From: Cyanidioschyzon merolae
Taxonomy: Eukaryota
Assembly (NCBI GenBank): GCA_000091205.1
Contig: AP006499.2
DNA length: 64,000 nucleotides
Reading direction: 5' to 3' (one strand)
Shown here: one piece after another, positions 2 through 52,900 of the stretch
Position numbering within the stretch: the first letter of the stretch is position 1
Layout: each line of letters begins with the position of its first letter
The notes under the pieces: model-generated
The model's database searches: none
Told to the model about the DNA's origin: nothing
Seen by the model: only the letters and a program-made list of their open reading frames with translations
Made by a program: the position numbers and the translations under genes

Positions 2-3000
2 TCATTCCTAGACTATCTCTACAGGGAACAGCACCTTCGGGGTCCTTTCCTGGTTGTCGCGCCTCTATCCACATTGGGACATTGGAAGCGAGAGTTTGAA
101 ACCTGGACTCACATGAATGCAATCGTCTTCCACGGCAACGTCAGAGCGCGTGATGTAATTCTGCAGTATGAATGGACCTATGCGGGCATGAGCGTCAGAT
201 CAGGCCTTTTTAAGTGGCATGTTCTCATTACGACGTATGAGATTATCTTGCAAGAAGCTAATCGCCTGCGGGGAATACCCTGGGCTGTCATCGTCGTGGA
301 CGAAGCGCACCGACTGAAGAACCGACAGTCCAAGCTGTTCGACGAGCTGCTTGGCTTCCGTTCCGAACATCGGGTACTGCTCACCGGAACGCCGCTCCAG
401 AACAATTCGCTGGAGCTCTTCTCGCTGCTCCATTTTCTAGAGCCAGCAAAATTCCCGAACGAGAAAGAGTTCCAACAAGCCTACGGAGATATTCGTGACG
501 CCGAGGCTGTCGAGAACCTGAAAGCGTTACTGCGACCGTATCTCCTGCGCCGGATGAAGGAGGATGTTGAGAAAGCGATACCGCCCAAGGAAGAGACGCT
601 CATAAGTGTCGAGTTAACTCGAATTCAAAAGCAGTGGTATCGAGCGCTGTACGAGCAGAACTTTGCTTTCCTCGAACAAGGCGGCAAGCGCAATAATGTT
701 GGTAATCTGCGCAACATTGTGATGGAGCTTCGCAAGTGTTGCAACCATCCGTATCTCATTCGTGGTGTCGAGGAGATCGAAACACAATCACTCGCTGCCT
801 TAGGTGAAGATGCACTGATGCGACACTTGGTGGAAGCATCTGGGAAGCTGGTGCTTGTCGACAAGTTGCTGCCTGTACTGCGCGAAAAAGGGCATCGCGT
901 GCTTATCTTCTCGCAAATGATTCGCGTTTTGGATATACTGGAGGACTATCTCCACTGGCGGGGATATAAGTTTGAACGACTGGATGGCCGGGTCCGCGGA
1001 AACGATCGCCAGCAGTCCATTGATCGCTTCCAAAAGGACCCGGAAAATTTCGTGTTCCTGCTCTGCACTCGTGCTGGTGGACAGGGCATCAATCTAACCG
1101 TTGCCGACACTGTGATTATTTTTGATAGTGACTGGAATCCGCAAAATGATGTACAAGCACAGGCGCGCTGTCATCGTATCGGGCAAGAACGCGACGTGAA
1201 AGTATATCGCCTCATTACGCGCGGCACGTACGAGGAAGAGATGTTCGATCGAGCGAGCAAAAAGCTCGGACTCGACCAAGCAGTGCTGCAGAACATGGGT
1301 GTCGACCAGGGCGGCAGCGGCAACATGCTCTCCACCATGGGCCGCGATGATATCAATCGCCTCTTACGACGTGGTGCCTATGATGTATTTAACGAAGACG
1401 ACTCGGCAGCTGACGCATTCACTGCTGAAAATATAGAGAATATCATGGCGCGACGTACCAAGACGATCAAGACTGGTGGCGCAGGCGACGTTGGACCGTC
1501 AGCGTTTTCCAAGGCAACTTTCACGGCGGATGCTGATGGGATGTTTGGCGATGAAACTTGGCTGAATGACAAAGAATTCTGGAAGAAACTGATGCCACTA
1601 GCGGCCTCTGCACCGAACCCCGATATCATCTATGAACCGCGTCGCCGGCGACAAGTTCAGCGCTTCCAGCCGGGCGAAAACTCTGATGAGGAGAGCGGCG
1701 AACACGAGTCCGACAGCGATGAAGCCGACTTGTCCGAGGACAAACTCGGACCCGATGGTCGGAAACTCTGGAACAAGTCCGAGCGACATCGATTTCATCG
1801 GGCGATGCTCACTTATGGCTACGGAGAGTGGGAACGGATTGCCCAGGCCATGGCCAGGGCCCAAAAAAGTGCCAATCAACGGTCTGTGTTTGAGGTTCAA
1901 CGCGCTGCTCGCAGCTGGTTGCGGCTACTTGCGGAGCACACTGCTGCCGCGCTGGTTGCTGGCGATGCCGCGGATGCCACGCAACAGGAGCGTCTCGCCC
2001 AGGAGCGCCTCGTGAAGCTTTGCAACGAGAAGCGCGTGCTGCAAGCTGCCTTTGAACCCTGGATCGATGAGAACACGCAACAACCTGTCGATGAATCGTT
2101 CACTGAACCAGTCTTCACTGAAGATAGCTACCTCGATGCAATGGAACGGAACGGGTACAACTGGATTGAACGTCTCGAATGCATCGAAGACATCAAAGAT
2201 CTGGTTCGAAACGGTGACGTTGACGGTGAGATTCCCTCGATCACCGCCAGTGGCATCTATGTGATGCCCGACTGGTGGGACGCCGAGTTCGATCGAGCCC
2301 TGATTCTGGGCACCCACAGGCACGGGTACGGCCAGTACGATGATATGAGGCGGGATCCGGATCTGCACTTTTTCGGACGACTGGCGCCTTTGCCGCAGCC
2401 GGAGCCTGGCAATGGGAACGCAGCCGAGGACGGCGACGCGAGGCTCGCCGAATGGACCGCGCTGGACCAAAGCTACCGTGAAAAGGCCGCGTCTTTGGGA
2501 CTCGACGCGGAACAGCTACGAGCACGCGAGATGCCGACCCTACATATACTGAATACGCGACTGAAGAAGCTGCTTAAGGCATTCCAGCGCCTACGACGGC
2601 GACAAGATCGTCGACGGAGCCAACTGGAACAGGCCGAAGAACGTGCGCGTGCTCGTGAGGAGCAACAGTTAGCACGCCGACGACAACGCGAGGCGTTTGA
2701 ACGCGAACGATCGGCTCGCTTTGAGGTTCAGGCACAACGCTGGTCCAAGCGTGAAAAGCACGACTTTGGACGTCTTCTTGGACGTCTCGGCGGCGTGGTC
2801 TATGACGCGGATGGGCGTATTGACTGGTCCGTTTACAAGGAGCGCTGCCAGCTTTCACGCAAGTTCGACTACAACCTCGAGCGCATGTACATTGAGATGT
2901 TGGCCATGGCTCGGGAGAGTTTTCGACGTACCGGTGACGATGCGCTCGCAAAGGCCCTCGATGAACCCATCGAGTATGCGCTGCAGTGGCGGGCCAGTCA

Positions 3001-4855
3001 GCATGAGTCGCGCCTCGCGGAGATGCAGCGACTGAGCCGCGAGAGCAGCGACGCTGCCACTCGATTAGCTGCGCTCGAGGAGTGCCTTCGAGCGCCCCAA
3101 CTGGAAGGTTTTCCACCGACTGAACTCGAGGAATTGCGCACCCTGTTTATTCTCTCTCGCCGTTTCGTAGAACGCGTGCGTGTCTTGCACTTTATCCGCG
3201 TCGTCGCTGCACCACTGCTACAAAACCCGGAACTCTGTTCACATCTGATCGAGAACATACCGCCGCCTCGGTCGGACACACTGCCCTCCTGGTGGCGTGT
3301 CGCTGAGGGCCACGACTTGGCGCTCCTGCGCGGCGTCATTCGCTACGGCTTCGACACCGCCCCGCTAGCACTGGACCCGTCGCTCCCGTTTCTGCCGATA
3401 TGCTCGGATTTGGCGCAGCGAGCGAGCACCGCTGAACGTGCCCCCGAAGACGGTGACCTCAGCACCGCAGAAACAGAAACACGATCCACAAACAACGAAA
3501 ACGACATCGTTGCTATGTTTGCCAAACACCGCGGTGTCTTTCTGCGTGCACGCATCGCCGCTGAGGTGCTCGTTTACGGACGTATCGAGCGCGTGCATGC
3601 AAGCGCATCGTCGGGATCCGTGAAGCCCGATGCCCTGCCCCCGCAGGTGCCACCGCTGCCGATGGACACGTCATCGATGATCACGCATGCAGCGGGCACG
3701 CTTGGCAGCTTACGTGTCTATGCGACGGCCTCGGGGGAGCCGATCTCCAGCGAGGGTGGCGATGATTTCGAGCCTGTTCCCCTGGAGCTCGTTACCGTGG
3801 ATATGTTGCAGACATTCAAGCAGTTGAAGAAGCGAGCATCTGGGGTCGTCGATGTATCGAGTTTACCAGAACAAGTAGTGAGCCTTGGTCGCTTGCTCCA
3901 GAGACAAATGATCCGCGAAGAGACCATGTCAGGGAGCACGGGGCTTGAGCACCGATCTTCTGCTCCTGCTGCTGCTGCTGCTGCTGCTGCGTCGCTGGAC
4001 ATGGTGACAGCGTCGGCTGGATCGAGTGGGAAAAACGCCTCGTTGGTGCCGAGCCTCGCCACGGCAACTGCGGAGCGTTGCGGGCATACCGGTGACACGG
4101 AGACGAATCCCGTGCCTGTGGCGACGGGTCAGCGTGCGGTTGTGCCTGCAGCGGCGGCAGCGGGATCGACAGGTCACGGATCGGCGAGTCAGCCGCAGGT
4201 ACGCAGGTCGCAGCTGCACAAAGTCGCTCGCGATGAACACGGGAACGTTCGGTTGCCGATCCAGATCGGGGTGGTCCTACGGATCGAATCCCTCGGGCAC
4301 ATTGATCCACGAGAGAGTTTCCATAACGAGCGAGCGATCTACCCAGTCGGGTATCGATCGGTGCGCACGTACACGAGTTGCGTCGATGTGAATCGCTCAA
4401 CACAGTATGTATCGGAAATTCTGGATCGAGATGGACATCCGTGGTTCCGGGTCACTTGTGCGGACATGCCGGAGGAGCCGTTCGAGGACAAGTCGCCGAG
4501 CGGATGTTGGTCTCAGATCATGCGAATCATTCGAGAGCGAACCCCGTTGGATAGACGACGCGTTCATGCCACGGTTAGCGGTCCAGAGTATTTCGGACTG
4601 ACACAGCCGATCGTCGAAGAGCTTTTGCAGTCCCTTCCAGGGGCCGCACAACTCAAGAACTACAATTTTAAGCGGTTTCTTTCTCCGGAAAAGGCGGAAT
4701 CTGAGGAATCGCTCCATCCCCTGGGCGCAGCGACGGATTCACCGGCAGCGGGTACAGCGCAAGAGCAGTTGCGAGCGGTTGAGCGCGCGAAGACCATGGC
4801 AGATCCGGTTCGTATCAGACTCTGCCTAGAGCCGATGGAAACAAACCCCGACTGA
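2..4855 (+). CDS. CHD-family SNF2 chromatin-remodelling ATPase (5' end cut by window edge); helicase ATP-binding and helicase-C domains, SANT/SLIDE-like region, poly-Ala tract, C-terminal FYRN/FYRC-like module
   Basis: The reading frame stays open back to nt 2; the upstream translation (..GPFLVVAPLSTLGHW) is SNF2 motif I/Ia, so the N-terminus, including any chromodomains, lies outside the window. DEAH box VVDEAHRLKN, LLTGTPLQNN and helicase-C QAQARCHRIGQ are present. WNKSERHRFHRAMLTYGYGEWERI is SANT-like. The C-terminal FHNERAIYPVGYRSVRTY...DGHPWF...SPSGCWSQI...EYFGLT...LPG matches the FYRN/FYRC pattern of MLL/trithorax. Confidence 0.85.
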   Translation, partial: SFLDYLYREQHLRGPFLVVAPLSTLGHWKREFETWTHMNAIVFHGNVRARDVILQYEWTYAGMSVRSGLFKWHVLITTYEIILQEANRLRGIPWAVIVVDEAHRLKNRQSKLFDELLGFRSEHRVLLTGTPLQNNSLELFSLLHFLEPAKFPNEKEFQQAYGDIRDAEAVENLKALLRPYLLRRMKEDVEKAIPPKEETLISVELTRIQKQWYRALYEQNFAFLEQGGKRNNVGNLRNIVMELRKCCNHPYLIRGVEEIETQSLAALGEDALMRHLVEASGKLVLVDKLLPVLREKGHRVLIFSQMIRVLDILEDYLHWRGYKFERLDGRVRGNDRQQSIDRFQKDPENFVFLLCTRAGGQGINLTVADTVIIFDSDWNPQNDVQAQARCHRIGQERDVKVYRLITRGTYEEEMFDRASKKLGLDQAVLQNMGVDQGGSGNMLSTMGRDDINRLLRRGAYDVFNEDDSAADAFTAENIENIMARRTKTIKTGGAGDVGPSAFSKATFTADADGMFGDETWLNDKEFWKKLMPLAASAPNPDIIYEPRRRRQVQRFQPGENSDEESGEHESDSDEADLSEDKLGPDGRKLWNKSERHRFHRAMLTYGYGEWERIAQAMARAQKSANQRSVFEVQRAARSWLRLLAEHTAAALVAGDAADATQQERLAQERLVKLCNEKRVLQAAFEPWIDENTQQPVDESFTEPVFTEDSYLDAMERNGYNWIERLECIEDIKDLVRNGDVDGEIPSITASGIYVMPDWWDAEFDRALILGTHRHGYGQYDDMRRDPDLHFFGRLAPLPQPEPGNGNAAEDGDARLAEWTALDQSYREKAASLGLDAEQLRAREMPTLHILNTRLKKLLKAFQRLRRRQDRRRSQLEQAEERARAREEQQLARRRQREAFERERSARFEVQAQRWSKREKHDFGRLLGRLGGVVYDADGRIDWSVYKERCQLSRKFDYNLERMYIEMLAMARESFRRTGDDALAKALDEPIEYALQWRASQHESRLAEMQRLSRESSDAATRLAALEECLRAPQLEGFPPTELEELRTLFILSRRFVERVRVLHFIRVVAAPLLQNPELCSHLIENIPPPRSDTLPSWWRVAEGHDLALLRGVIRYGFDTAPLALDPSLPFLPICSDLAQRASTAERAPEDGDLSTAETETRSTNNENDIVAMFAKHRGVFLRARIAAEVLVYGRIERVHASASSGSVKPDALPPQVPPLPMDTSSMITHAAGTLGSLRVYATASGEPISSEGGDDFEPVPLELVTVDMLQTFKQLKKRASGVVDVSSLPEQVVSLGRLLQRQMIREETMSGSTGLEHRSSAPAAAAAAAASLDMVTASAGSSGKNASLVPSLATATAERCGHTGDTETNPVPVATGQRAVVPAAAAAGSTGHGSASQPQVRRSQLHKVARDEHGNVRLPIQIGVVLRIESLGHIDPRESFHNERAIYPVGYRSVRTYTSCVDVNRSTQYVSEILDRDGHPWFRVTCADMPEEPFEDKSPSGCWSQIMRIIRERTPLDRRRVHATVSGPEYFGLTQPIVEELLQSLPGAAQLKNYNFKRFLSPEKAESEESLHPLGAATDSPAAGTAQEQLRAVERAKTMADPVRIRLCLEPMETNPD
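3962..3990 (+). repeat. (GCT)n trinucleotide microsatellite inside the CHD CDS, encoding a poly-Ala run (APAAAAAAAAS)
   Basis: Direct read: gctcctgctgctgctgctgctgctgctgcg. Confidence 0.9.
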
Positions 4856-6154: not shown

Positions 6155-6193
6155 GCTGCTGCTGCTGCTGCTGCTGCTGCCGCTACTGCTGCC
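6155..6193. repeat. (GCT)n microsatellite, intergenic
   Basis: Direct read: gctgctgctgctgctgctgctgccgctactgctgccg. Confidence 0.9.
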
Positions 6194-24315: not shown

Positions 24316-24343
24316 GCTGCTGCTGCTGCTGCTGCTGCTGCTA
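24316..24343. repeat. (GCT)n microsatellite 65 bp downstream of the HSP90 stop
   Basis: Direct read: gctgctgctgctgctgctgctgctgcta. Confidence 0.9.
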
Positions 24344-30482: not shown

Positions 30483-31814
30483 GTGCGTTGCGGAGCGAAG
30501 CGTCTTCCCATGTCGGCGGTGCGTCCGAAACGCCAACGATCGCACAGGTCGACGGCACCCGGGTCAAGACGCAGTTCGTCCTCCCGTGTACCCGTGGGCA
30601 CTGTGAAGGCGGTCAACACGGAGGTACCGCCCTCCGCGACGTCGGGCGACGGCGAAGGCTCAGCTTGCGTCTCGGTGGACCGCTGCTGCAACGCTGCCGC
30701 CGAAGGTGACTGGACCACCTACCTCTCCAACGCAAAGCGAGTGCTGCGTGCGACCCTGGATCGTGGCACGCGTGTCCTCGATGGACACGCTCGCTCCACC
30801 GGTGACGCATGGCTCGTACTTCGCGCTTTCGTGGAGCGTGCTCACTTTGCGAATGCGAGTCAGCGCTTTCAAGAAGTGTACGCGGCGCTAGAGCGCTGTA
30901 TGCAAGACGCTGCGTTTCTCGGTATGCTTCTGTCCATCCTGCAGGCGGACATCGATCGAGACCTCACTGGAACTGTTGCGCAGAGCATCACACGCCTCGC
31001 TTTCGCCGAGAATGGCCGTGAACGTCTGGAAGCGGCCGGTTTCCTGGGAGCGTTATGGGAGGCCCGCTCACGATACCTGGCCAGGTGCGATTGGTGCGTC
31101 GTTGCCCATTTAAGTGAGGCGCTTGCTATTCTGGTCCAGTGTGATGCGAACGTGCAACGGCTGTTGTCAAGTGAACCCAACCCGACGATTCACATCGACG
31201 CCTTGCGTGCTGAAGTTCAAGACTCGACAGATGCCAGTGGGCCAGCGTTCGCACTGGAGGCCATCGTCGGCCTTGTTGCGTCACCTTCGTTTTCAGTGAC
31301 CGGTGCTATGGCAAAGTCCCTGAGCAAACTGGTGATACAGGTGACGCAAACGGCATTATCTGCTATGCGGACGCGCCCTCCTGCAGAGCATGGGTTTCTT
31401 ATAGACCGCGTTGTCGTGGCGAGCACACTTGCACAACGACTGGCTCGATCGAATCCGCAGGATGTTTTGAGCGAACTTTATGAGCAATGGCTGCCCTTGA
31501 TTGAGCAGACGATGACCGTGCAGGAGTTGGATGGTGCAATGCGATGGCGCCTCATGTCGAACGCGGCGGATATCGAATGGGTGCAGCGCCTTGGATGCAG
31601 CGAGAAGAGCGGCGATCGCACTGAAAAGGGCGATCTGCCGCTGTCATTGCATCCAAGCGACCGCACAAGCAAACAGGCAGATGCCGGTACCAGCATCGCC
31701 GGTAAAACGAGACTGAATCGGGCTGGGGCTTCATCAACTCAACGGGGACGAGGCCAACGAACGGGTCGCGGAGCTGGGCGTGCTCGCAGTGCGGGCGTCG
31801 AGGTTGCTTCGTAG
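30483..31814 (+). CDS. Hypothetical protein (443 aa), helical and Ala/Leu-rich, with an R/G-rich C-terminal tail
   Basis: Long ORF with coding-like GC3 and no recognisable motif. Its 3' end overlaps the convergent ORF 31734..33569 by 81 bp. Confidence 0.4.
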   Translation: MRCGAKRLPMSAVRPKRQRSHRSTAPGSRRSSSSRVPVGTVKAVNTEVPPSATSGDGEGSACVSVDRCCNAAAEGDWTTYLSNAKRVLRATLDRGTRVLDGHARSTGDAWLVLRAFVERAHFANASQRFQEVYAALERCMQDAAFLGMLLSILQADIDRDLTGTVAQSITRLAFAENGRERLEAAGFLGALWEARSRYLARCDWCVVAHLSEALAILVQCDANVQRLLSSEPNPTIHIDALRAEVQDSTDASGPAFALEAIVGLVASPSFSVTGAMAKSLSKLVIQVTQTALSAMRTRPPAEHGFLIDRVVVASTLAQRLARSNPQDVLSELYEQWLPLIEQTMTVQELDGAMRWRLMSNAADIEWVQRLGCSEKSGDRTEKGDLPLSLHPSDRTSKQADAGTSIAGKTRLNRAGASSTQRGRGQRTGRGAGRARSAGVEVAS

Positions 31815-33569
31815 TTCCGCTTGGGCCTCGGCGGCCTGTTTCAGTTTGGTGTTGAATTCTTGCGCCTCTTGGAGAAGGCGTTTTCGGATGCTATCCTCCC
31901 GTCCTGGTTGTGTTTTGGACGCTGAGCGCTGGCCTTGTCGAAGATGCTCTTCATGTCTGGTGAGAAGTCGATCTTCCAGGGCACAGATGCGTTCGCAGAG
32001 CTCGGCTGCAGTATTTTCCTTGGATTCGAGAGCCTGTTGAATCTCTTTCAGGGCTTGCTCCTTCAGACCAAGTTCTTTTTGGGAACGCTCGCACTGTTCA
32101 TGTAATTCGCGCTCTCGCTTAGTGGCAGTCTCCCATGCAGATCGAACTTCGGCCAGCTCGTGCACCAGCTGAAGCTTGCTCTGCTCGAGCCGTCTCAGTT
32201 CTCGTTCAAGTTGATTCGCACGTCGCTCATTCCGCTGAATTTCCTGTTTCATGGCTGCTTCGTGTCCCTCAAGCTCGTGAATGCGAGCATACAGCCGCTC
32301 TGCTTGCGAATGCGCTCGCTTCTGACCGGTTGCTTGCGCCTGAGCGAAACGATGTGCGCATGCGGCAGCATGTAGAAGCGTCTGGGACAAACGTTGCTCA
32401 AGTGAACGGCATTTCGCAGCGACGCCGCACTCCAGTTCAGCGCATTGTCGCTCCCATCCACACGTAAAAGAGAAGAGCGTTCGGGCAACGCCCTTGAGGC
32501 CGCGTTGCCACTGCTTGGTCACGGCTTGTTCCGCACGCATCTGCTCTTCGTGCTGAATCTTCACAGTATTGAGCGTTTCGACATGGCGTTGTGCCTGTTG
32601 CCGCCACTCCTGCTCTGATTGTTTGGCTTGGTCGAGCTTTTTCTGGACCTTCTCGGTGATCGATTCAAAGTGCTGGATTTGACCCTGCATGGCTTCGAAT
32701 CGATGCCTGTTCTCGTCAGCTATTTTTCGCAGCTCTTCCTGGCGTTTTTCGAGGGCCTGCTCGCGGCTATTCGCGGCCTGGACGATCTCGAGAAGCTCTT
32801 GCTGGAGTTTGCGCTCGGAATCCCTCGCAAGGGCCTCTTGTTCCTCAAGCTGATGACAGCGGTCCTCGAACTCACGAAGCTTTTGTCGTAGCGTCACGTT
32901 TTCGCGATAGAGCGCATCCGCCTGGTGGGATTCCGCTTTTTGCGGCGGCGGCGTGCTTTCAATCGTCCTCTGGACGGTCTTGCGAAGAAGCTCGAACTCC
33001 GTCGAGAGTCGAGCACGGTCGCTCTCCCATCGCTGACGCTCCTTTTCTCGGAAACGCTCCAGCCGGACCACCACCTCAAGGAGACTTCTCGTGGGAAAGA
33101 GCGTCACACTCAGTCCGACGAACCTTGGGGGCTCGCAAAGGCGCCCACTGGTACAGCGCGCTTCAGTGGCACCTGAGACCAACCCGTGCAGCTCATTGCA
33201 GGGCTGAAAAGCGTTCATGACGGCCTCGACGTATTGCGCACAAACTAGGTCTGAGCAGCTGTTTCCCTCCTGTGTGAATAATACCCGGGAGAGAAGGCAA
33301 GCTTCGGCGACTCCAAGGTCTCGCAAACGAGCCTGCTGCGACATAGCTGAGGCTGAGCCTGGCAAGCGCCCGCCGATTCGAGGCCGGCACCCCAGCAGAT
33401 TGCAAGGAGCAAACTTGTTCCTTTGAACTTTTGGAACGTGCTTCAATACCCACCAGTTGCAAACGAAATGGAACAGTGGTATGATGACGTGCACACGCAG
33501 CAACAGGTACATCACCAGGAGGTGCCTCTGCTGCCTGAGCACGCTCGCTTTGGAGAGCGCGTAGGCCAT
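31734..33569 (-). CDS. Hypothetical long coiled-coil protein (611 aa)
   Basis: About 400 aa of heptad-like E/Q/R/K/L-rich sequence (LEEQEALARDSERKLQQELLEIVQAANSREQALEKRQEELRKIADENRHRFEAMQGQIQHFESITEKVQKKLDQAKQSEQEWRQQAQRH). The N-terminal ~70 aa look non-native, so the true start is likely an internal Met. Confidence 0.5.
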   Translation of the reverse strand: MAYALSKASVLRQQRHLLVMYLLLRVHVIIPLFHFVCNWWVLKHVPKVQRNKFAPCNLLGCRPRIGGRLPGSASAMSQQARLRDLGVAEACLLSRVLFTQEGNSCSDLVCAQYVEAVMNAFQPCNELHGLVSGATEARCTSGRLCEPPRFVGLSVTLFPTRSLLEVVVRLERFREKERQRWESDRARLSTEFELLRKTVQRTIESTPPPQKAESHQADALYRENVTLRQKLREFEDRCHQLEEQEALARDSERKLQQELLEIVQAANSREQALEKRQEELRKIADENRHRFEAMQGQIQHFESITEKVQKKLDQAKQSEQEWRQQAQRHVETLNTVKIQHEEQMRAEQAVTKQWQRGLKGVARTLFSFTCGWERQCAELECGVAAKCRSLEQRLSQTLLHAAACAHRFAQAQATGQKRAHSQAERLYARIHELEGHEAAMKQEIQRNERRANQLERELRRLEQSKLQLVHELAEVRSAWETATKRERELHEQCERSQKELGLKEQALKEIQQALESKENTAAELCERICALEDRLLTRHEEHLRQGQRSASKTQPGREDSIRKRLLQEAQEFNTKLKQAAEAQAELRSNLDARTASTPSSATRSLASSPLS

Positions 33570-39941: not shown

Positions 39942-41495
39942 ATGTTTTGCCAGTCTATGGGGATACGCTGTGGTTTTCTCCTATTGTCGTTGACCTCCCA
40001 GGTGGTCAAAGGGGCCCCTCGTTGGTTGTGTAGGAAGAAGCGAAGTCACGTAGCCGCCACTGGCGTTTGTGCAGCAGTATTCCAACGGTCGGGGGTCTGG
40101 CGCAGCCCCAGGATGCTACACTCCGAAACTTCTGGTGCTGCGTCTGATGATCGCAAATCAGCGCTGTTGCAAAAACCAGGCTCGGCAAGCAAGCTTCTGG
40201 AAGCTTGCCTCTCTGCGGACGGCTGTCTGGAAACTAGTCTTGGCCCGGAAACTTTCTCTGAGGTGCTGGAAACACTGTGCCGGCAGAACGCAACGAAGCA
40301 CGCACGCACCCTGATAAACGCACTTTGTAAGGGGCAGAGCCATTCGACGGTATTCGCAGCCGATGAACATATCATGCGGGTGCTGCCAACTTATGTAGAC
40401 CTAGTGCGACGCGAGCGTGATCTCGAGGCGCTGAACGTTATTCGAGAAGCCCTTGAACAAGGCAAGTTTGGTCACGCTCTGCAGAAAGTGACGCTGGTTG
40501 AGCAAGTGTATCTCTCGAGTGTTCAGCTCGCTATAGAACGTGAGCAGCTAGAGGAGGCTGTTGCGACGATGAAAGCGCTCCGTCGCTTTGCTCGACGGCC
40601 GTCGACGCCGTGTCCGCCACCCGGCGAATCCTCCGACGGAAGTGAATCACTGACATCAAACTTCGACGCAGTGGCTCAGCAGTTCGAGTCCGAACGAACC
40701 GAACGCTTTTGTAAGACGATGCGCATGTTTAGCAAGGCCCGAGACTTTCGCGGCCTCTTCCTCACCATGGATGCTGTACAGCTTTGCGGTTTGAGCTTGA
40801 GCGCCGCGGTTCTGGATTGCCTTGCCCAGTGTGCCGTCCGTGAAGTGAGTTTTGTTACCGGTGCTGTATCCATGGACACAATGCCGGATGGGCGCTTCCC
40901 CGAAGCAGCGTTTTTCGGACGCTCCAATGTGGGAAAGAGCTCCCTGGTGAACATGGTGATTGGTCGCAAAGCGCTTGCGAAAACGAGCAAGACTCCCGGT
41001 AAGACCAAGCAATACAACTTCTATCTTGTCAATGAGGGCGACCCAACGAACGCTTTTTACCTCGTAGACTTACCTGGTGCAGGCTATGCCAAAGTCTCAA
41101 AGGGACAACGGTTGGAGTGGGAGCGAATGTTTGGGAGTTATGTACGGGAGCGCAAGAAATTGCGAGTACTCTTTCATCTAATCGATAGTCAGACGGGTCC
41201 GCTAGAAGAAGATGCACGTCTGATGTCCTCGCTCGCGGGGACATTGCCTGTGAATGAGGGTCGCGGGAAAACTCAGGGGAATCGCGCGCTGCACTATGTT
41301 GTAGTTCTGACCAAGATCGACAAACAAGACGGTTCGGTACCGCCTTCTGTCTTCGATCGGTTGGAGCAGGTCTTAGAGAGCACCGGTCTGTTGAGTTCGC
41401 GCGAAATTCCGGTTTTGACTACTTCAGCACAAACAAAAGCCGGCCGCGAAGCTGTCTGGCAGTATCTACGTCTGCTCCATAAACACTGGCGCTAG
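39942..41495 (+). CDS. EngB/YihA/YsxC-family ribosome-biogenesis GTPase with a ~300 aa N-terminal extension (likely organelle-targeted)
   Basis: The C-terminal 200 aa read FFGRSNVGKSSLVNMVIG (G1), LAKTSKTPGKTKQYNFY (G2), LVDLPGAGYAKV (G3) and VVVLTKIDK (G4), which is the EngB order and wording. Confidence 0.8.
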   Translation: MFCQSMGIRCGFLLLSLTSQVVKGAPRWLCRKKRSHVAATGVCAAVFQRSGVWRSPRMLHSETSGAASDDRKSALLQKPGSASKLLEACLSADGCLETSLGPETFSEVLETLCRQNATKHARTLINALCKGQSHSTVFAADEHIMRVLPTYVDLVRRERDLEALNVIREALEQGKFGHALQKVTLVEQVYLSSVQLAIEREQLEEAVATMKALRRFARRPSTPCPPPGESSDGSESLTSNFDAVAQQFESERTERFCKTMRMFSKARDFRGLFLTMDAVQLCGLSLSAAVLDCLAQCAVREVSFVTGAVSMDTMPDGRFPEAAFFGRSNVGKSSLVNMVIGRKALAKTSKTPGKTKQYNFYLVNEGDPTNAFYLVDLPGAGYAKVSKGQRLEWERMFGSYVRERKKLRVLFHLIDSQTGPLEEDARLMSSLAGTLPVNEGRGKTQGNRALHYVVVLTKIDKQDGSVPPSVFDRLEQVLESTGLLSSREIPVLTTSAQTKAGREAVWQYLRLLHKHWR

Positions 41496-41616
41496 GGCAC
41501 AGGCGATGCAGTCGAACTATGCCACGGACTCGTTCCGCCGGACGTGGCGCGAGGCGCTCAGTCGCCTTTCGCACGGCTGGATTCATTGACATTCGGGGAC
41601 GCACTGAACAACTAAA

Positions 41617-42200
41617 GACTAAATGGCCGTAGGATCGCTTTTTATTAGGACCCGTACAGAGCCCAAGGGACGCATTCGCCTGATCGCCGGTGGAAATACA
41701 GACTGAATGGTCGTAGGATCGCTTTTTATTAGGACCCGTACAGAGCCCAAGGGACGCATTCGCCTGATCGCCAGTGGAAATACAGACTGAATGGTCGTAG
41801 GATCGCTTTTTATTAGGACCCGTACAGAGCCCAAGGGACGCATTCGCCTGATCGCCAGTGGAAATGCAGACTGAATGGCCGTAGAATCGCTTTTTATTAG
41901 GACCCGTACAGAGCCCAAGGGACGCATTCGCCTGATCGCCAGTGGAAATACAGACTGAATGGCCGTAGAATCGCTTTTTATTAGGACCCGTACAGAGCCC
42001 AAGGGACGCATTCGCCTGATCGCCAGTGGAAATACAGACTGAATGGTCGTAGGATCGCTTTTTATTAGGACCCGTACAGAGCCCAAGGGACGCATTCGCC
42101 TGATCGCCAGTGGAAATACAGACTGAATGGTCGTAGGATCGCTTTTTATTAGGACCCGTACAGAGCCCAAGGGACGCATTCGCCTGATCGCCAGTGGAAA
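41617..42200. repeat. Tandem minisatellite, 84-bp unit x ~7
   Basis: The unit gactgaatggtcgtaggatcgctttttattaggacccgtacagagcccaagggacgcattcgcctgatcgccagtggaaataca recurs at 41701, 41785, 41869, 41953, 42037 and 42121. Because 84 is 28 codons, minus-strand ORFs run through it with STGDQANASLGLCTGPNKKRSYDHSVCI repeats. Confidence 0.9.
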
Positions 42201-43053
42201 GCAACTTGTATCGCCGCGTTGTTCGAGCCCCGAATGCAGGCTCGATACTCGTTTCCCTGACGACTGCAGAGGATTTGTGCGTGCAAGATGCGCACGTGCC
42301 GTGCATCCGAAACATGGACGCATCTGGTAAGCGTGCCTCTGTCAAAGCACATGAAAAGCTCGGCGATGACTGCGTGATCAGGTATGTATCAGATACGGGA
42401 TACGTCTGCGTTTCCTGCTGCTTCCACGACAAATGCTCGTATGTGCGACAGACGTACGGCCTACCGGATGGAGGGAAGCGCTTGTGCGAGCCTTTCCCCG
42501 TTGGTAAAGTTAGATACATCACGCTGGATCGCGGGTCATCGAAGAATACCATCCAATGCATACGTATGCTTGTCGAGTTGCAACAGATCTGATTTGGAGA
42601 TCCATCCATGCACGCGATGATCCTCACACATGTGCGTGCGTCGATTCTTTGATCCATCCATGCACGCATCTCTCCATCGATCAAACCATGCGTGCACTCA
42701 TTGTCACAAGCATGCACGCATCGCTCCATCGATTTCTCTATTCACGAATGAACGCCTCATCAAGAATTTCTTATAGTGCACGATCAGTGTAGAAATCCGA
42801 TTTACAGGGCGTGTAGTTGCTTCCACCACCCATTGAAAAGGCTTTCTTCTTCTACATCTGTATCTCCGTTTACCTAGCCAGAGACCAGTTTCCCAGTGGC
42901 GCGCTGTGAGGGCGCCATATGCGAGCGTCGTATAGCGCACGCCAGAATGCCAGCAGGCATACCGGCTGGTGCTCGGCGACGCCCCGCCGATGAATCCGCG
43001 GCTGCGTGCACGATCGCCATCCGATCCCCACATGACGTCGATCGACGCGATGG

Positions 43054-47100: not shown

Positions 47101-48989
47101 GAGGCGCTTTTGCCCTGCACGCGGCGTGCTCGGCACGCACTTGATCGCCGAGCTGATTCAAGCTCCATGCTCAACTGGAGCACATGTCCATGGTTGATGA
47201 AGCGTCCAAGCGTCTATATAGAGGCTCAAGTCGACCGACTGGTCACCGCTGGCAGCTGCATATTCTGAGGAATGCTGCTATGTTCAACTACTTTACGCTA
47301 TGCAATGCTGCAGATTCTCTTGATAAGTATAGCCCCTATTCTTTGAGTAAATTCTGGCTCGGCGTTGTTTTCCCATGAAGCGTTCTATCAAGGAATGGAG
47401 GCGCCCGCCTGACTAGCGTCGGTGCATATACATGCATGGTGTCTGGTTCACTTCATGCAACCTTTACGGGAGCTTTTGCGGAAGAGCAAGTGTGCGCGCC
47501 GAGCTCGCTGCGCGATGACTCTGGTGGAGAAATGATTTGTATGCGCTCACGGCAGGCTCGGCACACGAAGTATCACACGAACTGACGATTATCTCTAAAG
47601 CAAGCTCTGAATAGTCTTAGCTGACGGCATCTGTAGGTCTGGCGCGGACTGATGGCTGCGCCTCTTGACGCACATAACAATCGCGTCCTGAGGGATCCTT
47701 ATCCAGACTATATCCGTGTCAGATTAAAACGGAACACTAAATTGTGCGCTCTGCTCTTGCCTTTCATGCTTTCCGAACTTTTCTAGATCTACATCCTCGA
47801 CATTTCATGAGCAGCAATACGGGCATTCAGATTCACTGGTGATTGCGAGATTCTCAAGTGTCTCTTTGGAGAAGCTCCATGGACACGTTGCCGCTGGGTT
47901 TCTTTACCAAAACGGAATCAAGACTACACGCGACGAGCTCGAACAAAGCTTCGTAAAATAGGTGGTATCCATATCCAAGTCATGCGTGGAAGCCTCCACT
48001 CTTCCTGTTTACTCCCGTTTGGTACGCTTAAATAACGCGTTCTGCACGTTTTCCACCTCTGTGTCATGCCAAGTCGTTGGCGCAGCCAATGCGCGCCGCT
48101 GGATCGACGAAGAAGAAAACTCTAAGTTGGCCCATGACGAGTTGCGCTCAACGCCAAGCCCATATTTCACTAAACTTGTCTCACGAATTCGTCGATTCCT
48201 CTCCATAGACAAATCCTCCTCTCGTTGTTAACGACGAGAAGCCAGCATTCGACAGCAGCATGGTACCTCTGACCGTAAACGCTCTCAGATGTTTCCGTCC
48301 CTTCTGTTTGTATGGAAAACGGTAATGGGCTCGGACGTTGTTCATCGGAGCGGTCGTTTTCCGCGGAGAGTGCGTCACCGCTTCGCAGGGAAGGAACGTG
48401 GAACCATGGAAATTTCTCATCTTGTTCTCCAGTTTGGATTTTCTTTCTCGGACTTTTTTCATGATCGACAAGTTCACCGTCCATAGATCCACTGTCGAAT
48501 AGAACAGCATTCGCTTGTGCGTGCAGCGGACGAAGGACTCGCCGAGGGCATCGCCCAGAAGAGGCCTGTGAATATGAGGTACGGCACTTGGCATGGAACC
48601 AGAGGAAGGCAACGACACGAGCTTTCAGTACCCCTCAAGCGCATCTACCGCTTGATGAAAGAAGCATTCTCACGCGTCAGGACGGCCCTTAAAGAACAAA
48701 GTATGGTGGACGTATGAGAACGTCAGTAAACAGCCAAGTGCCGCCCTTTCCAGGGCACACCAGGATGTTTACAACGGAGATAAAAGTTGGCAAGCGAAAC
48801 GTTGATTACAACCACCGCCTGTGCATAAAGTGCAATGAAACCATCCGACAGTAGGGAAATCGGTACTTGAACACTGCCGTCAACTTCCTGCGACGACGAC
48901 TGACACCGGACCTTGAGGGAACGGAGAGATCGGCGGCTTCCAAGCCCTGGATACAACAGCGGAAAAGAGTGTATTCGAGTCAAAAGCTC

Positions 48990-49750
48990 CCAAAGGGTGA
49001 CAACGATGATCTTACACAGAGACTATAACTTAAGAGTATACAAATCCGAGATAGATACCCTGTTCCCTTTCTTTCGGACTCGTTGTCGAGAATCCGTCGA
49101 AGGGGTGACAACGGTGATCTTACACAGAGACCATAACTTAAGAGTATATAAATCCGAGATAGATACCCTGTTCCCTTTCTTTCGGACTCGTTGTCGAGGA
49201 TCCGTCGAAGGGGTGACAACGGTGATCTTACACAGAGACCATAACTTAAGAGTGTACAAATCCGAGATAGATACCCTGTTCCCTTTCTTTCGGACTCGTT
49301 GTCGAGAATCCGTCGAAGGGGTGACAACGGTGATCTTACACAGAGACCATAACTTAAGAGTATATAAATCCGAGATAGATGCCCTGTTCCCTTTCTTTCG
49401 GACTCGTTGTCGAGGATCCGTCGAAGGGGTGACAACGGTGATCTTACACAGAGACCATAACTTAAGAGTATATAAATCCGAGATAGATGCCCTGTTCCCT
49501 TTCTTTCGGACTCGTTGTCGAGGATCCGTCGAAGGGGTGACAACGGTGATCTTACACAGAGACCATAACTTAAGAGTATACAAATCCGAGATAGATACCC
49601 TGTTCCCTTTCTTTCGGACTCGTTATCGAGAATCCGTCGAAGGGGTGACAACGGTGATCTTACACAGAGACTATAACTTAAGAGTATATAAATCCGAGAT
49701 AGATACCCTGTTCCCTTTCTTTCGGACTCGTTGTCGAGAATCCGTCGCTC
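48990..49750. repeat. Tandem minisatellite, 108-bp unit x 7
   Basis: The unit gtgacaacggtgatcttacacagagaccataacttaagagtatataaatccgagatagataccctgttccctttctttcggactcgttgtcgagaatccgtcgaagggg starts at 48997, 49105, 49213, 49321, 49429, 49537 and 49645. Because 108 is 36 codons, open frames run through on both strands (VTTVILHRDHNLRVYKSEIDTLFPFFRTRCRESVEG). Confidence 0.9.
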
Positions 49751-49954
49751 AAACAATCGTCCACGACGCATTTGAATTCCCGGGCCGCCCTGTCCAATCT
49801 GCCGCGTCAGGCACAGCGGAGGCGCTGGCGCGTTCACGGCGGCGCTCTACGAACCTCTAGCTCTACCAACAAGTCATTGGACGAGAGCGTCGTTACGAGA
49901 ATATCGGAGCACCGTCGCTCTTGGACGACAACCAGGAGGCAAGGGTGAGCAGAA

Positions 49955-52900
49955 GTGACAATGCGAACCGAACGCGGCAATGCAGTTGCTTCCTCGGAAG
50001 CTGGGGCAATCTGGTTCCAACTTCTTCAAGCAATTGGAGTGCCATGCTCGAGTTCCGACGATTCAGACTGGCTCTCACCGTGGAGGCTGCTGCTTCAGAC
50101 GCAGTACGAACGGTTCATCGCTCACTGGTACAGACAAACAGAAGAACCAACACGTGCTGAGGTGGAGGAATCACTTGGTCGTCTTTGCGTAGGTGACTCG
50201 CTAGGCCTGGATATATCTGCGGAGAACGGCGACGCTGAGCGGATACCGTTGGAGTTTTTAGGCTCGGGGCACGATACGCTGTCGCTGCATCAGATCCCGG
50301 TGGCGCTTGTCCATATGGAAAAATTCTGTTTCGCTCTTGAATCGGCCCTGGAAGGTGTCAACAGAGAGCCGGCGCGCACCGACGTCCAGCCGGCGAGTCA
50401 GGGTGGCGACAGCGTTCATACGGGTGCTGAATCCGTGGTTACGGGGCTCTATGCTTCCTGTCCGGACGTTTCAAGTATCATTGGAGTGCTGTACGCATGG
50501 ATCAGGGTCGGTATGCAGCTGGAAGAGCAGTGTGGTGCTGCCTTAGTGCGTCGCAAGCGGGCCGTGCAATTCAGCCAAGAGGGCGCACCTGAGAAGCGAG
50601 CAGCATCGGAGCAAAACTTTCGCAATGGCGACAAACAAGAGAGAGACGAGCGCTTCCGAAACCAGACTACTTGCCGTGTAACAAGTGATAGAGCCTCCAG
50701 TTCCGACGATTCAGCCGAGGACTCACAGGGAAAAGACCATGAGCAAGCCAGTACCGGGCTTTCAGATGTTTTGTTCACGCAGACACGCCTCAGGGCTGCG
50801 GTGCTTAGCATGCTCGCTAGCCAGGCGTACTGGCGTGTACTTTCCGTCATGCCCGAAGCTTTCGTTCCCTTCGTCTTCAAGGCCGCTGTGCACGCCCTGA
50901 GGCAAATGACGCGCGCGCAAGGAATCGGAGCGCTCGTCGAGGAGGTCAGCACGAAAACGCTATCCGCGCTTGCCGCTCTCTTCGACTCCATACCATGGAT
51001 TCGCTATCTGCTGCGAATCGGTATCCAACAAGTGTCGGTCACAGGACCACTTCAGCCTCAAGGTCACCGCGGGTCGCCGCTCGCCGATGATGATTCTAAC
51101 TCAGCGGGCCTCGAAGAATCCCTGAGCGGTGCATCAGAACTCATCCTCCGCAGATTGGTTGCAGTCGGGCTGAACAAGCCACGTTCCACCAAGCTGCTAT
51201 GCTCGAAGGAACAGGTTTTTCGAAGTGCTTGGAAGAATATGATCATGGTGACTGCATTCTCATCCGAGCAGCTCGTTCGCGGAGCACTACGTCCTGTTCT
51301 GAATCTGTTCATAGAGGGTCTCTCTCTCAAAGGAGCGGCGCCGGTTATCGATCCCAGCCCAACCGCTACCCCGGCAGCGTCCAGTAATGCGCTCCACTCG
51401 CTTTCGACTGCGTTGTGTGAGCTTCTCCAGGCTGCCGGGAGAGAGGCCCCAGAAGAGGCGGGCACAAGCATTACGGAACGAATCTCAGCCGCGGTGCTTG
51501 TTCTGCTTCAGCATTTAAGCATCCGAGCGCCGGAGACGGCGGTTCGTCGCTCCACTCTAGCACAGTGCATTTTATCCTTTTTGATCACAATGGAATCGAC
51601 CGATATCTACCGCTTCTGCTCTTTCGTTCAGAAACTCACACAGCATCCACGTGCAGCGGTTCGATGTCTGGCTTTGGAGATCGCTGCGAACATCGAGGAG
51701 GAGCCGGATGATGACCCCGCTAAGTCTTCAGAGGACGCCGCGGTAGCCTGGGCGCTCTTCTATCGGTCAATTTGGGCTCGAATACGTGATCGTCATGCCC
51801 TGGTCCGAGCACGGGCGCTTACTGCCACAGCTGCAGCCTTGGATCACCTTGCCGGTGCGAATCAGTCCAAGGCGCGAGCGCTGCTGCTCCGTGAGCGCCA
51901 ACTACTCATCAGTCGATTGCGGGACGAAAAAGCACCCGTGCGAAAGAGTGCCCTCACGCTCGCGTTCATAACGCTGGAGATGCTGGCGCAGCGAAGCGAA
52001 TGGACAAGAGCTGCAGATCGCATCCTGGCTGCTGTGCAGGAGCGATGTGCAGATACACACCTCGCGGTACGACTCGCAGCTGCACAGCAGGTTACGAGAC
52101 TCGCCAGTTCGGCACCGAGTGCGTTTCGAGAGCGCTTCATCAACGCCTGGTGTGACAGCGTGTTGCAACTGGTCTACGATCCAGAGCCGGCTGTCGTTGA
52201 AGCGTGCCTTGAAGGCTTTCTGGAGCTCCTCTTCAGCGCTCAAAACAGCGTCGCGGATGCACCAGCGGAAACCCAGTCGCAGGTGTGCCCACTCGTTGGG
52301 AACACTGTGCTCACGATAGCGGCTGGGAAAGGAGACCCACGAAGACCGTTCCTGTTCCTGCTGTGGCATCGCTTAAGCCAGCGAGCGCCGCTACCAGACA
52401 CCCTCTATCAGTGGCTCTGTGAAAGTGCGCATCCACAGGGGCAACCGGGCGCCTGGCATCTGCTTGCTCAACTCACATCCTATGCGGAAACTGCGCGCCA
52501 GGCAGTGGTGCGGCATATTCTGGAGTCTAACCAGCGGATTCTGATTGATCTCGATCCTGACGATCCCGTAGCCAATGAAGTGACTCAGGTTGTGGCTCAG
52601 ACGGCGCCCGCTGCCGGCCGTCTGGTCCCGCTTATCCAGAGTGATGCGCGCACTCTACTGTTTCAGCTCCGAGGCAATCCTGGTCGGATACCAGCGCTCA
52701 TCCAGTGCCTTGCACGGGTTGCCACCAACCCGCATTGGTCCCAAGAGCTCATTCAGGCTTGTTCCGAGTTGCTCTCCCTTGAGCCGGCGGAATACGCCTG
52801 TTCCTCGCTGGAGGAGCGGGCGTGTGCGCTTACGGCGTGGAGTGAGGTCGTCTTGAGCGGCCTCGCTGCGCCCGACGACGAGCGCCTTCGAGTGCGCGCA

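What the first reader, a model, noticed from the sequence alone, without database searches (positions are those of the whole stretch)
4150..4700. CHD ATPase carries a C-terminal FYRN/FYRC (FY-rich) module, an unusual domain combination
The last ~170 aa of the CHD protein read FHNERAIYPVGYRSVRTYTSCVD..STQYVSEILDRDGHPWFRVTC...EDKSPSGCWSQIMRII...GPEYFGLTQPIVEELLQSLPGAAQLKNYNFK. This matches the MLL/trithorax FYRN-FYRC consensus almost position for position. That consensus runs FHNE..IYPVGY.S.R.Y.S...Y.C.I...G.P.F, then SP...W..I, then LFGLT...V..L.E.LPG...C..Y.F. FYR modules are normally found in SET-domain histone methyltransferases, TBRG1 and plant JmjC proteins, not in SNF2 remodellers. A CHD-FYR fusion would suggest a lineage-specific way of coupling remodelling to methyl-mark machinery.
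Basis: partly seen in the sequence, partly recalled or inferred. Interest (0 to 1): 0.6.

Follow-up and report, generated by a model that had tools for sequence, protein, structure and literature searches.

The report
Red-alga CHD remodeller with FYR domain
The window holds the already annotated CHD chromatin-remodelling gene of the red alga Cyanidioschyzon merolae, which really does end in an FY-rich (FYR) domain. The same combination occurs in many other single-celled eukaryotes, so it is an old, little-described architecture rather than a lineage-specific invention.

Summary
One uninterrupted reading frame (window 2..4855, + strand) encodes an SNF2 ATPase, Helicase_C, CHD-type helical domains, a low-complexity linker, then FYRN (nt 4253-4426, 65.9 bits) and FYRC (nt 4439-4675, 72 bits). 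An AlphaFold2 model of this module (pLDDT 94.9) matches only the solved FYR domain of TBRG1 (2wzo, rmsd 1.6 A).

The protein is 100% identical to residues 398-2014 of the annotated C. merolae 10D "CHD" protein (BAM82109.1 / M1VAH5). It is not two genes joined. The FYR block is 76-88% identical among the closest cyanidialean orthologues, against 18-28% in the linker just before it.

Of the best 120 CHD homologues, 44 carry one C-terminal FYR module. Named sources include red algae, five amoebozoans, a malawimonad and Diphylleia. Animal CHD6-9 (BRK instead) and mucoromycote CHDs lack it and nest inside the FYR-bearing grade. So it looks like an old class III CHD feature, not a lineage-specific one.

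Nothing links it to methyl-mark machinery. FYR also occurs in INO80E-like fungal proteins, and human TBRG1 co-purifies with INO80. The likeliest role is a protein-docking or targeting module.

The architecture is visible in domain databases. The papers I could search, including the largest CHD survey, do not mention it. Interest is modest.

The parts
2..4855 (+). 3' 4.85 kb of the C. merolae CHD gene (residues 398-2014 of the 2014-aa protein, plus the TGA stop at 4853-4855). The 5' end, with the tandem chromodomains and Walker A motif, lies outside the window.
   Evidence: Open frame. 1617/1617 identical to P0273 = BAM82109.1 / XP_005538145.1 / UniRef100_M1VAH5. Pfam on the full-length protein.
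2..757 (+). SNF2-related ATPase lobe 1, cut at the window edge. The DEAH box (window aa 100) and TGTPLQN (aa 128) are intact.
   Evidence: PF00176, 216.6 bits; motifs checked.
851..1183 (+). Helicase_C, ATPase lobe 2. GGQGINL (aa 359) and QAQARCHRIGQ (aa 385) are intact.
   Evidence: PF00271, 90.3 bits; motifs.
2276..2371 (+). CHD-type SANT/HTH-like helical element.
   Evidence: PF23588 HTH_CHD1_Hrp3, 28.4 bits against a cut-off of 27. This is marginal: 27.4 bits on the full-length protein.
2678..2935 (+). Tri-helical domain typical of CHD6-9 (class III CHD).
   Evidence: PF23078 HTH_CHD6-9, 40.5 bits against a cut-off of 27.
3599..4210 (+). Low-complexity Ala/Ser/Gly/Val-rich linker, including a (CTG)10 run at 3960-3990 that encodes poly-Ala. 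It is poorly conserved.
   Evidence: Composition; tandem repeat. Identity falls as low as 6-28% in the two 50-aa windows just before the FYR block (aa 1304-1403).
4253..4426 (+). FYRN half of the FYR module.
   Evidence: PF05964, 65.9 bits, E 2.5e-18.
4439..4675 (+). FYRC half of the FYR module, contiguous with FYRN (4-aa gap).
   Evidence: PF05965, 72.0 bits, E 4.7e-20.
4193..4726 (+). The modelled FYR fold unit (178 aa): a beta-sheet followed by helices, forming one compact domain.
   Evidence: AlphaFold2 pLDDT 94.9, pTM 0.87. Foldseek against PDB: the only significant hit is 2wzo (E 1.3e-14, TM 0.91 normalised to the target, rmsd 1.6 A over 145 columns). phmmer against PDB: 2wzo E 2.9e-19, KMT2D 9yle E 1.1e-13.
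4676..4852 (+). 59-aa C-terminal tail, weakly conserved.

Best explanation
This is the 3' part of the single-exon gene for the Cyanidioschyzon merolae class III (CHD6-9-like) chromatin remodeller. The domain order is tandem chromodomains (off-window), Snf2 ATPase with intact catalytic motifs, SANT/SLIDE-like helical DNA-binding region, a disordered low-complexity linker, and a C-terminal contiguous FYRN+FYRC module that folds as one alpha+beta domain like that of TBRG1. All of that is shown. Inferred: the FYR module is a protein-protein docking or targeting domain, flexibly tethered to the motor, that brings the remodeller to partner proteins such as DNA-binding factors or other chromatin complexes. 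It would sit where animal CHD6-9 carry their BRK interaction domains. Also inferred: the architecture is an old feature of class III CHDs that was lost on the lines leading to animals and to the fungi sampled. In some lineages FYR instead rides on remodellers in trans, as with TBRG1 and INO80, or on INO80E-helix+FYR proteins in Mortierellomycota.
For: Identity and continuity. FYR fold. Selection: the FYR block is 76-88% identical to Cyanidiococcus (P0002) and a second close cyanidialean orthologue (P0003), 64-74% to Cyanidium and 48-58% to Galdieria. The linker just before it is 6-28% identical to the same proteins. So FYR is conserved about as well as the ATPase core. Recurrence: 44 of the best 120 CHD homologues each have one FYR module 2-301 aa from the C-terminus, including complete transcript-derived ORFs from several protists. 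Class III assignment: HTH_CHD6-9 scores above its cut-off, and the best FYR-less hits are vertebrate CHD6/7/8/9 and mucoromycote CHDs. Ancestral pattern: in NJ trees of the ATPase core rooted on a CHD1/2-type sequence, the FYR-free animal clade (49 sequences, 200/200 bootstraps) nests inside a grade of FYR-bearing sequences in 198/200 replicates. Docking role: JMJ14's FYR binds NAC transcription factors (PMC4659397 abstract). TBRG1 co-purifies with the INO80 remodeller (PMC10954555). Mortierellomycote proteins combine an INO80E/F helix with FYR. BRK in class III CHDs is regarded as a protein-interaction domain (PMC9113485).
Against: No partner of this FYR module is known, and there are no experimental data for the C. 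merolae protein. NAC factors are plant-specific, so the JMJ14 precedent cannot transfer literally. The ancestral-state inference rests on unpartitioned NJ trees with a single long-branch outgroup and on the best 120 hits only. An NJ tree of the FYR modules themselves did not recover the CHD-borne modules as one clade, so repeated independent fusions are not excluded (confounded by fragments). Several FYR-less sequences inside the grade are full length (Physarum P0024, Heterostelium P0095), so gain and loss is dynamic.
Confidence: 0.6

Rival explanations
1. Artefact: two neighbouring genes (a CHD and a small FYR-only gene) merged by a hidden frameshift, a mis-assembly or a read-through gene model.
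For: A poorly conserved ~200-aa low-complexity linker separates the FYR module from the rest of the protein. Stand-alone FYR-only proteins of 250-310 aa do exist in other organisms.
Against: One frame is open across all 4.85 kb with no stop. The same order on one polypeptide appears in 44 homologues from independent genomes and in complete transcript ORFs. The deposited C. merolae 10D model is identical.
Confidence: 0.02
2. One reading: a lineage-specific fusion that couples remodelling to H3K4 methyl-mark machinery, for example by binding KMT2/COMPASS or KDM5 components.
For: FYR is best known from KMT2A-D and plant KDM5-type demethylases. The module aligns to KMT2D FYR at E 1.1e-13.
Against: It is not lineage-specific. 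The nearest solved relative is TBRG1, not KMT2. The nearest non-CHD FYR proteins found are INO80E-like, RING, kinase and other architectures; no SET or JmjC domain was among the 25 partner families listed of 28. No FYR domain is known to recognise methyl-lysine or the methylation enzymes in trans.
Confidence: 0.07
3. The FYR module acts within the molecule, either as an autoregulatory clamp on the ATPase or chromodomains or as a purely structural cap. This would resemble the way FYRN and FYRC hold the two MLL1 fragments together.
For: In MLL1 the documented role of FYRN/FYRC is intramolecular association of the cleaved halves (established knowledge; KMT2 reviews listed). Many Snf2 remodellers are gated by their accessory domains.
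Against: Here FYRN and FYRC are contiguous and already satisfy each other in one fold. The module is separated from the motor by a long, variable, low-complexity tether, which suits a docking module better than a fixed regulatory contact.
Confidence: 0.13
4. The FYR module is a direct chromatin reader that binds a nucleosome surface, histone tail or DNA feature and so sets substrate preference.
For: TBRG1 follows the modification-dependent nucleosome-binding profile of INO80 (PMC10954555). FYR recurs on many chromatin enzymes.
Against: TBRG1's profile is explained by its riding on INO80. No direct FYR-nucleosome contact has been reported in the papers I could read. The protein already has chromodomains and SANT/SLIDE-like elements for that job.
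Confidence: 0.15

Closest known systems
Animal class III CHD remodellers (CHD6, CHD7, CHD8, CHD9; Drosophila Kismet)
   Same: Tandem chromodomains, Snf2 ATPase, Helicase_C, the HTH_CHD6-9 tri-helical domain, a long partly disordered C-terminal half and a C-terminal interaction module. They are the best FYR-less hits (37-50% identity over the conserved core).
   Different: Animals carry BRK domains (PF07533), and CHDCT2 (PF08074) in many, near the C-terminus and have no FYR. The alga has FYR and no BRK.
TBRG1 / NIAM FYR domain (PDB 2wzo)
   Same: Contiguous FYRN+FYRC forming one alpha+beta fold. It is the closest solved structure (E 2.9e-19 by sequence; TM 0.91, rmsd 1.6 A by predicted fold). 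TBRG1 is physically associated with an SNF2-family remodeller, INO80.
   Different: TBRG1 is a small protein without enzymatic domains that joins a remodeller non-covalently. Here the module is covalently part of the motor subunit, and of a different Snf2 subfamily.
KMT2A-D / Trithorax FYRN-FYRC
   Same: The same Pfam families. The module aligns to KMT2D at E 1.1e-13.
   Different: The host enzyme is a SET methyltransferase. In KMT2A/B the two halves are far apart in sequence and re-associate after Taspase cleavage (established knowledge). Here they are 4 residues apart.
Plant KDM5-type JmjC demethylases with C-terminal FYR (JMJ14)
   Same: A contiguous FYR module at the C-terminus of a chromatin enzyme. 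Its demonstrated function is docking of transcription factors (PMC4659397). This is the best functional precedent.
   Different: The enzyme class differs (demethylase versus ATPase), and the NAC partners are plant-specific.
Mortierellomycota INO80E-helix + FYR proteins (e.g. Lobosporangium A0A1Y2GHN5)
   Same: The FYR module is 35-41% identical and is linked to a remodeller-complex element. The protein is chromatin-associated by annotation.
   Different: There is no ATPase. The link to the remodeller would run through the INO80E/F-type helix. The CHD6-9-like proteins of these fungi lack FYR.

Membership tests
FYR (FY-rich) domain family | FYRN profile match above Pfam's gathering score | tested here: met
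   PF05964, 65.9 bits against a cut-off of 24, profile positions 2-59 of 60.
FYR (FY-rich) domain family | FYRC profile match above Pfam's gathering score | tested here: met
   PF05965, 72.0 bits against a cut-off of 21, profile positions 2-83 of 84.
FYR (FY-rich) domain family | The two halves form one alpha+beta fold, as in the TBRG1 crystal structure | tested here: met
   Predicted, not solved. AF2 pLDDT 94.9. The only significant PDB fold match is 2wzo: TM 0.91 (normalised to the target), rmsd 1.6 A.
FYR (FY-rich) domain family | Protein-protein interaction activity | not testable with these tools
   Inferred from the JMJ14-NAC and TBRG1-INO80 precedents.
CHD family of Snf2 remodellers | Snf2-type ATPase with intact helicase motifs | tested here: met
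   PF00176 and PF00271. GLGKT, DEAH, TGTPLQN, GGQGINL and QAQARCHRIGQ are all present. Walker A is off-window, in the identical deposited protein.
CHD family of Snf2 remodellers | Tandem chromodomains N-terminal to the ATPase | tested here: met
   PF00385, two stretches, 68.3 bits, in the full-length P0273. They lie outside the window.
CHD subfamily III (CHD6-9 type) | CHD6-9 tri-helical domain, and closest relatives among CHD6-9 | tested here: met
   PF23078, 40.5 bits against a cut-off of 27. The best FYR-less hits are CHD6/7/8/9. It groups with them against a CHD1/2-type outgroup.
CHD subfamily III (CHD6-9 type) | BRK domain(s) in the C-terminal region (typical of the animal members; not universal) | tested here: not met
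   No PF07533 hit at E <= 0.01. FYR occupies the C-terminal position instead.
KMT2/Trithorax or KDM5 FYR-bearing histone-methylation enzymes | SET or JmjC catalytic domain on the same polypeptide | tested here: not met
   No SET or JmjC hit in the full-length protein.

The most novel reading that the evidence does not exclude
FYR was the ancestral C-terminal accessory module of class III CHD remodellers. It was present before the split of red algae, Amoebozoa, CRuMs and malawimonads, and was lost on the lines leading to animals (which carry BRK there) and to the sampled fungi. The fusion would then be a 'Rosetta stone': FYR would be a general targeting module for SNF2-family remodellers, attached covalently (protist CHDs) or non-covalently (TBRG1 on INO80, INO80E-helix+FYR proteins). 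This predicts that stand-alone FYR proteins in animals and fungi also work with CHD6-9-type or other remodellers.
Probability: 0.3. Interest if true: 0.55.

Novelty: new variant of a known kind. Interest (0 to 1): 0.35.

Why it matters
Class III CHDs (CHD7 in CHARGE syndrome, CHD8 in autism) have poorly understood C-terminal halves, and the function of the FYR domain is still vague. A conserved CHD-FYR architecture across distant protists gives an evolutionary hint. Together with TBRG1-INO80 and the INO80E-FYR proteins, it suggests that FYR is a remodeller-associated targeting module rather than a methylation-specific one.

C. merolae is intron-poor, as the long intron-free reading frames in this window illustrate. 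From general knowledge it is also haploid and amenable to gene targeting, so deleting or tagging the FYR module there would be a cheap test.

The broadest published CHD survey annotated only domains present in model-organism CHDs, so by design it could not see this domain (PMC9113485). That said, the gene itself is ordinary and already annotated. The domain hits are visible in precomputed Pfam annotation, and no new kind of system is involved.

Tried and rejected
(1) A word-index search with the FYR region alone found nothing. With the FYR profile it returned only 38 short FYR-only proteins and not even the CHDs the profile was built from. These reflect sensitivity limits of that tool, not absence of relatives.

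(2) An NJ tree of 201 FYR modules did not recover the CHD-borne modules as one clade. This is inconclusive. The domain is only ~150 aa, and many 'non-CHD' entries are C-terminal fragments whose true architecture is unknown.

(3) Tritrichomonas musculus 'choline dehydrogenase 6' (P0129) looked like another CHD-FYR protein by name. It is in fact kinase + Sel1 + TPR + two FYR modules with no SNF2 domain, so it was dropped from the taxon list.

(4) The 'Schistocerca gregaria CHD8-like' protein with FYR (P0032) sits on a gene-dense 395-kb unplaced scaffold with compact genes. It is most likely a non-insect contaminant and was not counted as an animal example.

(5) Eight full-text literature searches found no paper describing the combination, and neither did reading two broad surveys. 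The TBRG1 structure paper (PMC2970912) is not held.

(6) The Tiarina (ciliate) transcriptome hit may include prey sequences, so it is cited with that caveat.
Full report
WHAT IS THERE

Frame 2 of the + strand is open from the first base of the window to a TGA at 4853-4855. Its 1617-aa translation carries these Pfam domains, in order:
- SNF2-rel_dom, aa 1-252
- Helicase_C, aa 284-394
- HTH_CHD1_Hrp3, aa 759-790
- HTH_CHD6-9, aa 893-978
- FYRN, aa 1418-1475 (nt 4253-4426; 65.9 bits, E 2.5e-18)
- FYRC, aa 1480-1558 (nt 4439-4675; 72.0 bits, E 4.7e-20)

Both FYR halves score far above Pfam's gathering thresholds and cover nearly the whole profiles. The only correction is that a 59-aa tail follows the module.

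IDENTITY OF THE GENE

The translation is 1617/1617 identical to residues 398-2014 of 'chromodomain helicase DNA binding protein CHD' of Cyanidioschyzon merolae strain 10D (BAM82109.1, XP_005538145.1, UniRef100_M1VAH5). The full-length protein adds two chromodomain stretches and the Walker A motif upstream of the window. It has no BRK, SET or JmjC domain. All Snf2 catalytic motifs are intact.

The rest of the window fits a compact eukaryotic genome. It holds intron-free housekeeping genes on both strands, including HSP90, a proteasome alpha subunit, PreP peptidase, DAP epimerase, a condensin Cnd1-like protein and DNAJC9.

ONE PROTEIN, NOT TWO

Three lines of evidence apply, beyond the continuous frame.
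- Orthologues from Cyanidiococcus yangmingshanensis (78% identity), Cyanidium caldarium (59%) and Galdieria (38-39% over nearly the full length) show the same order on one polypeptide.
- Complete transcript-derived ORFs from several protists show it too.
- In a sliding identity profile, the FYR block (window aa 1404-1553) is 76-88% identical to Cyanidiococcus and a second close cyanidialean orthologue, 64-74% to Cyanidium and 48-58% to Galdieria. This follows a linker at 6-28% and matches the conservation of the ATPase core.

The linker (about aa 1200-1403) is rich in Ala, Ser, Gly and Val and contains a (CTG)10 poly-Ala run.

THE FOLD

I aligned 28 CHD-borne FYR modules (A2) and used the alignment for an AlphaFold2 model. 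The model has mean pLDDT 94.9 and pTM 0.87, with a beta-sheet followed by helices.

Foldseek against the PDB gives one significant match, the FYR domain of TBRG1 (2wzo): E 1.3e-14, TM 0.91 normalised to the target, rmsd 1.6 A over 145 columns. Everything else has E > 0.2. By sequence, 2wzo matches at E 2.9e-19 and KMT2D (9yle) at E 1.1e-13. FYRN and FYRC are contiguous, as in the TBRG1 arrangement, and not split as in MLL1.

HOW COMMON IS THE COMBINATION

Of the best 120 homologues of the whole protein, 44 carry precomputed PF05964 and PF05965 together with SNF2, Helicase_C and, in nearly all, Chromo. A local HMM places exactly one FYR module in each, 2-301 aa from the C-terminus.

Named sources:
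- Red algae: Cyanidioschyzon, Cyanidiococcus, Cyanidium, Galdieria, Pyropia
- Amoebozoa: Pyxidicula, Echinamoeba, Phalansterium, Cavostelium, Arcella
- Malawimonad: Gefionella
- CRuMs: Diphylleia
- A Tiarina transcriptome (prey contamination is possible)

Vertebrate CHD6/7/8/9 have BRK instead. The mucoromycote and mortierellomycote CHDs have neither domain.

Two apparent further examples did not hold up.
- A 'Schistocerca' example sits on a compact, gene-dense unplaced scaffold and is probably a contaminant.
- A Tritrichomonas protein named like a CHD is not one.

ANCESTRAL OR REPEATED FUSION

I built NJ trees of the ATPase core rooted on the one CHD1/2-type sequence in the set. The FYR-free animal clade (49 sequences) is recovered in 200/200 bootstraps. 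It nests within a grade of FYR-bearing sequences in 198/200. This fits FYR being ancestral to class III CHDs and lost towards animals.

The method is simple and the root rests on one long branch. A tree of the FYR modules themselves was uninformative. I therefore treat 'one ancient fusion' as the more likely reading, not as shown.

FYR OUTSIDE METHYLATION ENZYMES

An exhaustive HMMER scan with the FYR module alone found 1634 representative proteins at E <= 1e-3. All 80 of the most similar ones outside the CHD set have FYRN and FYRC. Of these, 11 also carry the INO80E helix (PF24237) and 7 the INO80F helix (PF24245). Others carry RING, protein kinase with Sel1, a GREB1-type SF2 helicase, MT-A70, zf-CW or PHD.

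The INO80E+FYR proteins are from Mortierellomycota (Lobosporangium, Mortierella, Actinomortierella). Mucoromycota and chytrids also have 250-310-aa FYR-only proteins.

Published work shows that human TBRG1 co-purifies with the INO80 remodeller at substoichiometric levels and follows its nucleosome-binding profile (PMC10954555). So an association of FYR with SNF2-family remodellers has precedent, in trans.

MECHANISM

Shown: an apparently catalytically competent class III CHD motor, with a strongly conserved, well-folded FYR domain on a long flexible tether at the C-terminus.

Inferred: the FYR domain is a docking or targeting module. The supports are:
- JMJ14's C-terminal FYR, which binds NAC transcription factors (PMC4659397)
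- TBRG1-INO80
- the positional equivalence to BRK, which is regarded as a protein-interaction domain in animal class III CHDs (PMC9113485)

They are listed with their tests. None has direct support here, and the lineage-specific part of the last is contradicted.

NOVELTY

The gene is annotated, and the domain hits appear in the precomputed Pfam annotation returned by the homologue search. In that sense the combination is already visible in public databases.

I found no paper that describes it, in eight full-text searches. The largest CHD survey covers 8,042 homologues from 1,894 taxa and lists subfamily III in 12 rhodophyte taxa. It never mentions FYR. It annotated only Pfam domains found in model-organism CHDs, so it could not have detected FYR. 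A pan-eukaryotic chromatin survey does not mention it either.

I rate it a variant of a known kind, of modest interest. It is real, conserved and under-described, but it is built from known parts and has no demonstrated new mechanism.

Noticed in passing
window 41616-42200: Near-perfect minisatellite: an 84-bp unit repeated 7.0 times, 98% matches. It lies inside a mechanical ORF (41419-42729, - strand, 436 aa) that has no meaningful Pfam hit. The period is a multiple of 3, so it could encode a 28-aa protein repeat or simply be non-coding.
   Followed up: no
window 48995-49747: Second minisatellite: a 108-bp unit repeated 7.0 times, 97% matches. It is spanned by overlapping mechanical ORFs on both strands (48913-49860 + and 48980-49837 -) that give only spurious sub-threshold Pfam hits. 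It sits just upstream of the condensin Cnd1-like ORF at 49955-54823.
   Followed up: no
window 30483-31814 (+) and 31734-33569 (-): Two long ORFs (443 and 611 aa) with no Pfam match at E <= 1e-3. Their mechanical coordinates overlap by about 80 bases at convergent ends.
   Followed up: no
P0157, P0169, P0173, P0181, P0191 (Mortierellomycota proteins, not in the window): A family of 650-911-aa fungal proteins that combine an INO80E/INO80F-type helix with a contiguous FYR module 150-200 aa downstream. The CHD6-9-like proteins of the same fungi lack FYR. Together with the published TBRG1-INO80 association, this suggests FYR is a remodeller-linked module.
   Followed up: partly
L001 8001-14813 (GCA_023897955.2 scaffold JAKZLS010001556.1): A CHD-FYR protein annotated as 'CHD8-like [Schistocerca gregaria]' lies on a 395-kb unplaced scaffold. 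The scaffold has compact, closely spaced genes, unlike a locust genome, so it is probably a contaminating protist sequence in the assembly.
   Followed up: partly
and one search hit names: Several fungal and Tritrichomonas proteins are named 'choline dehydrogenase 6/7' in NCBI. This is evidently a wrong expansion of the abbreviation CHD6/CHD7. One of them (P0129) is not even a CHD.
   Followed up: partly
window 3960-3990, 6155-6192, 24316-24342: Short (CTG/GCT)n trinucleotide runs. The first encodes the poly-Ala stretch in the CHD linker. No tRNA genes and no Rfam family at gathering score were found anywhere in the 64 kb.
   Followed up: no
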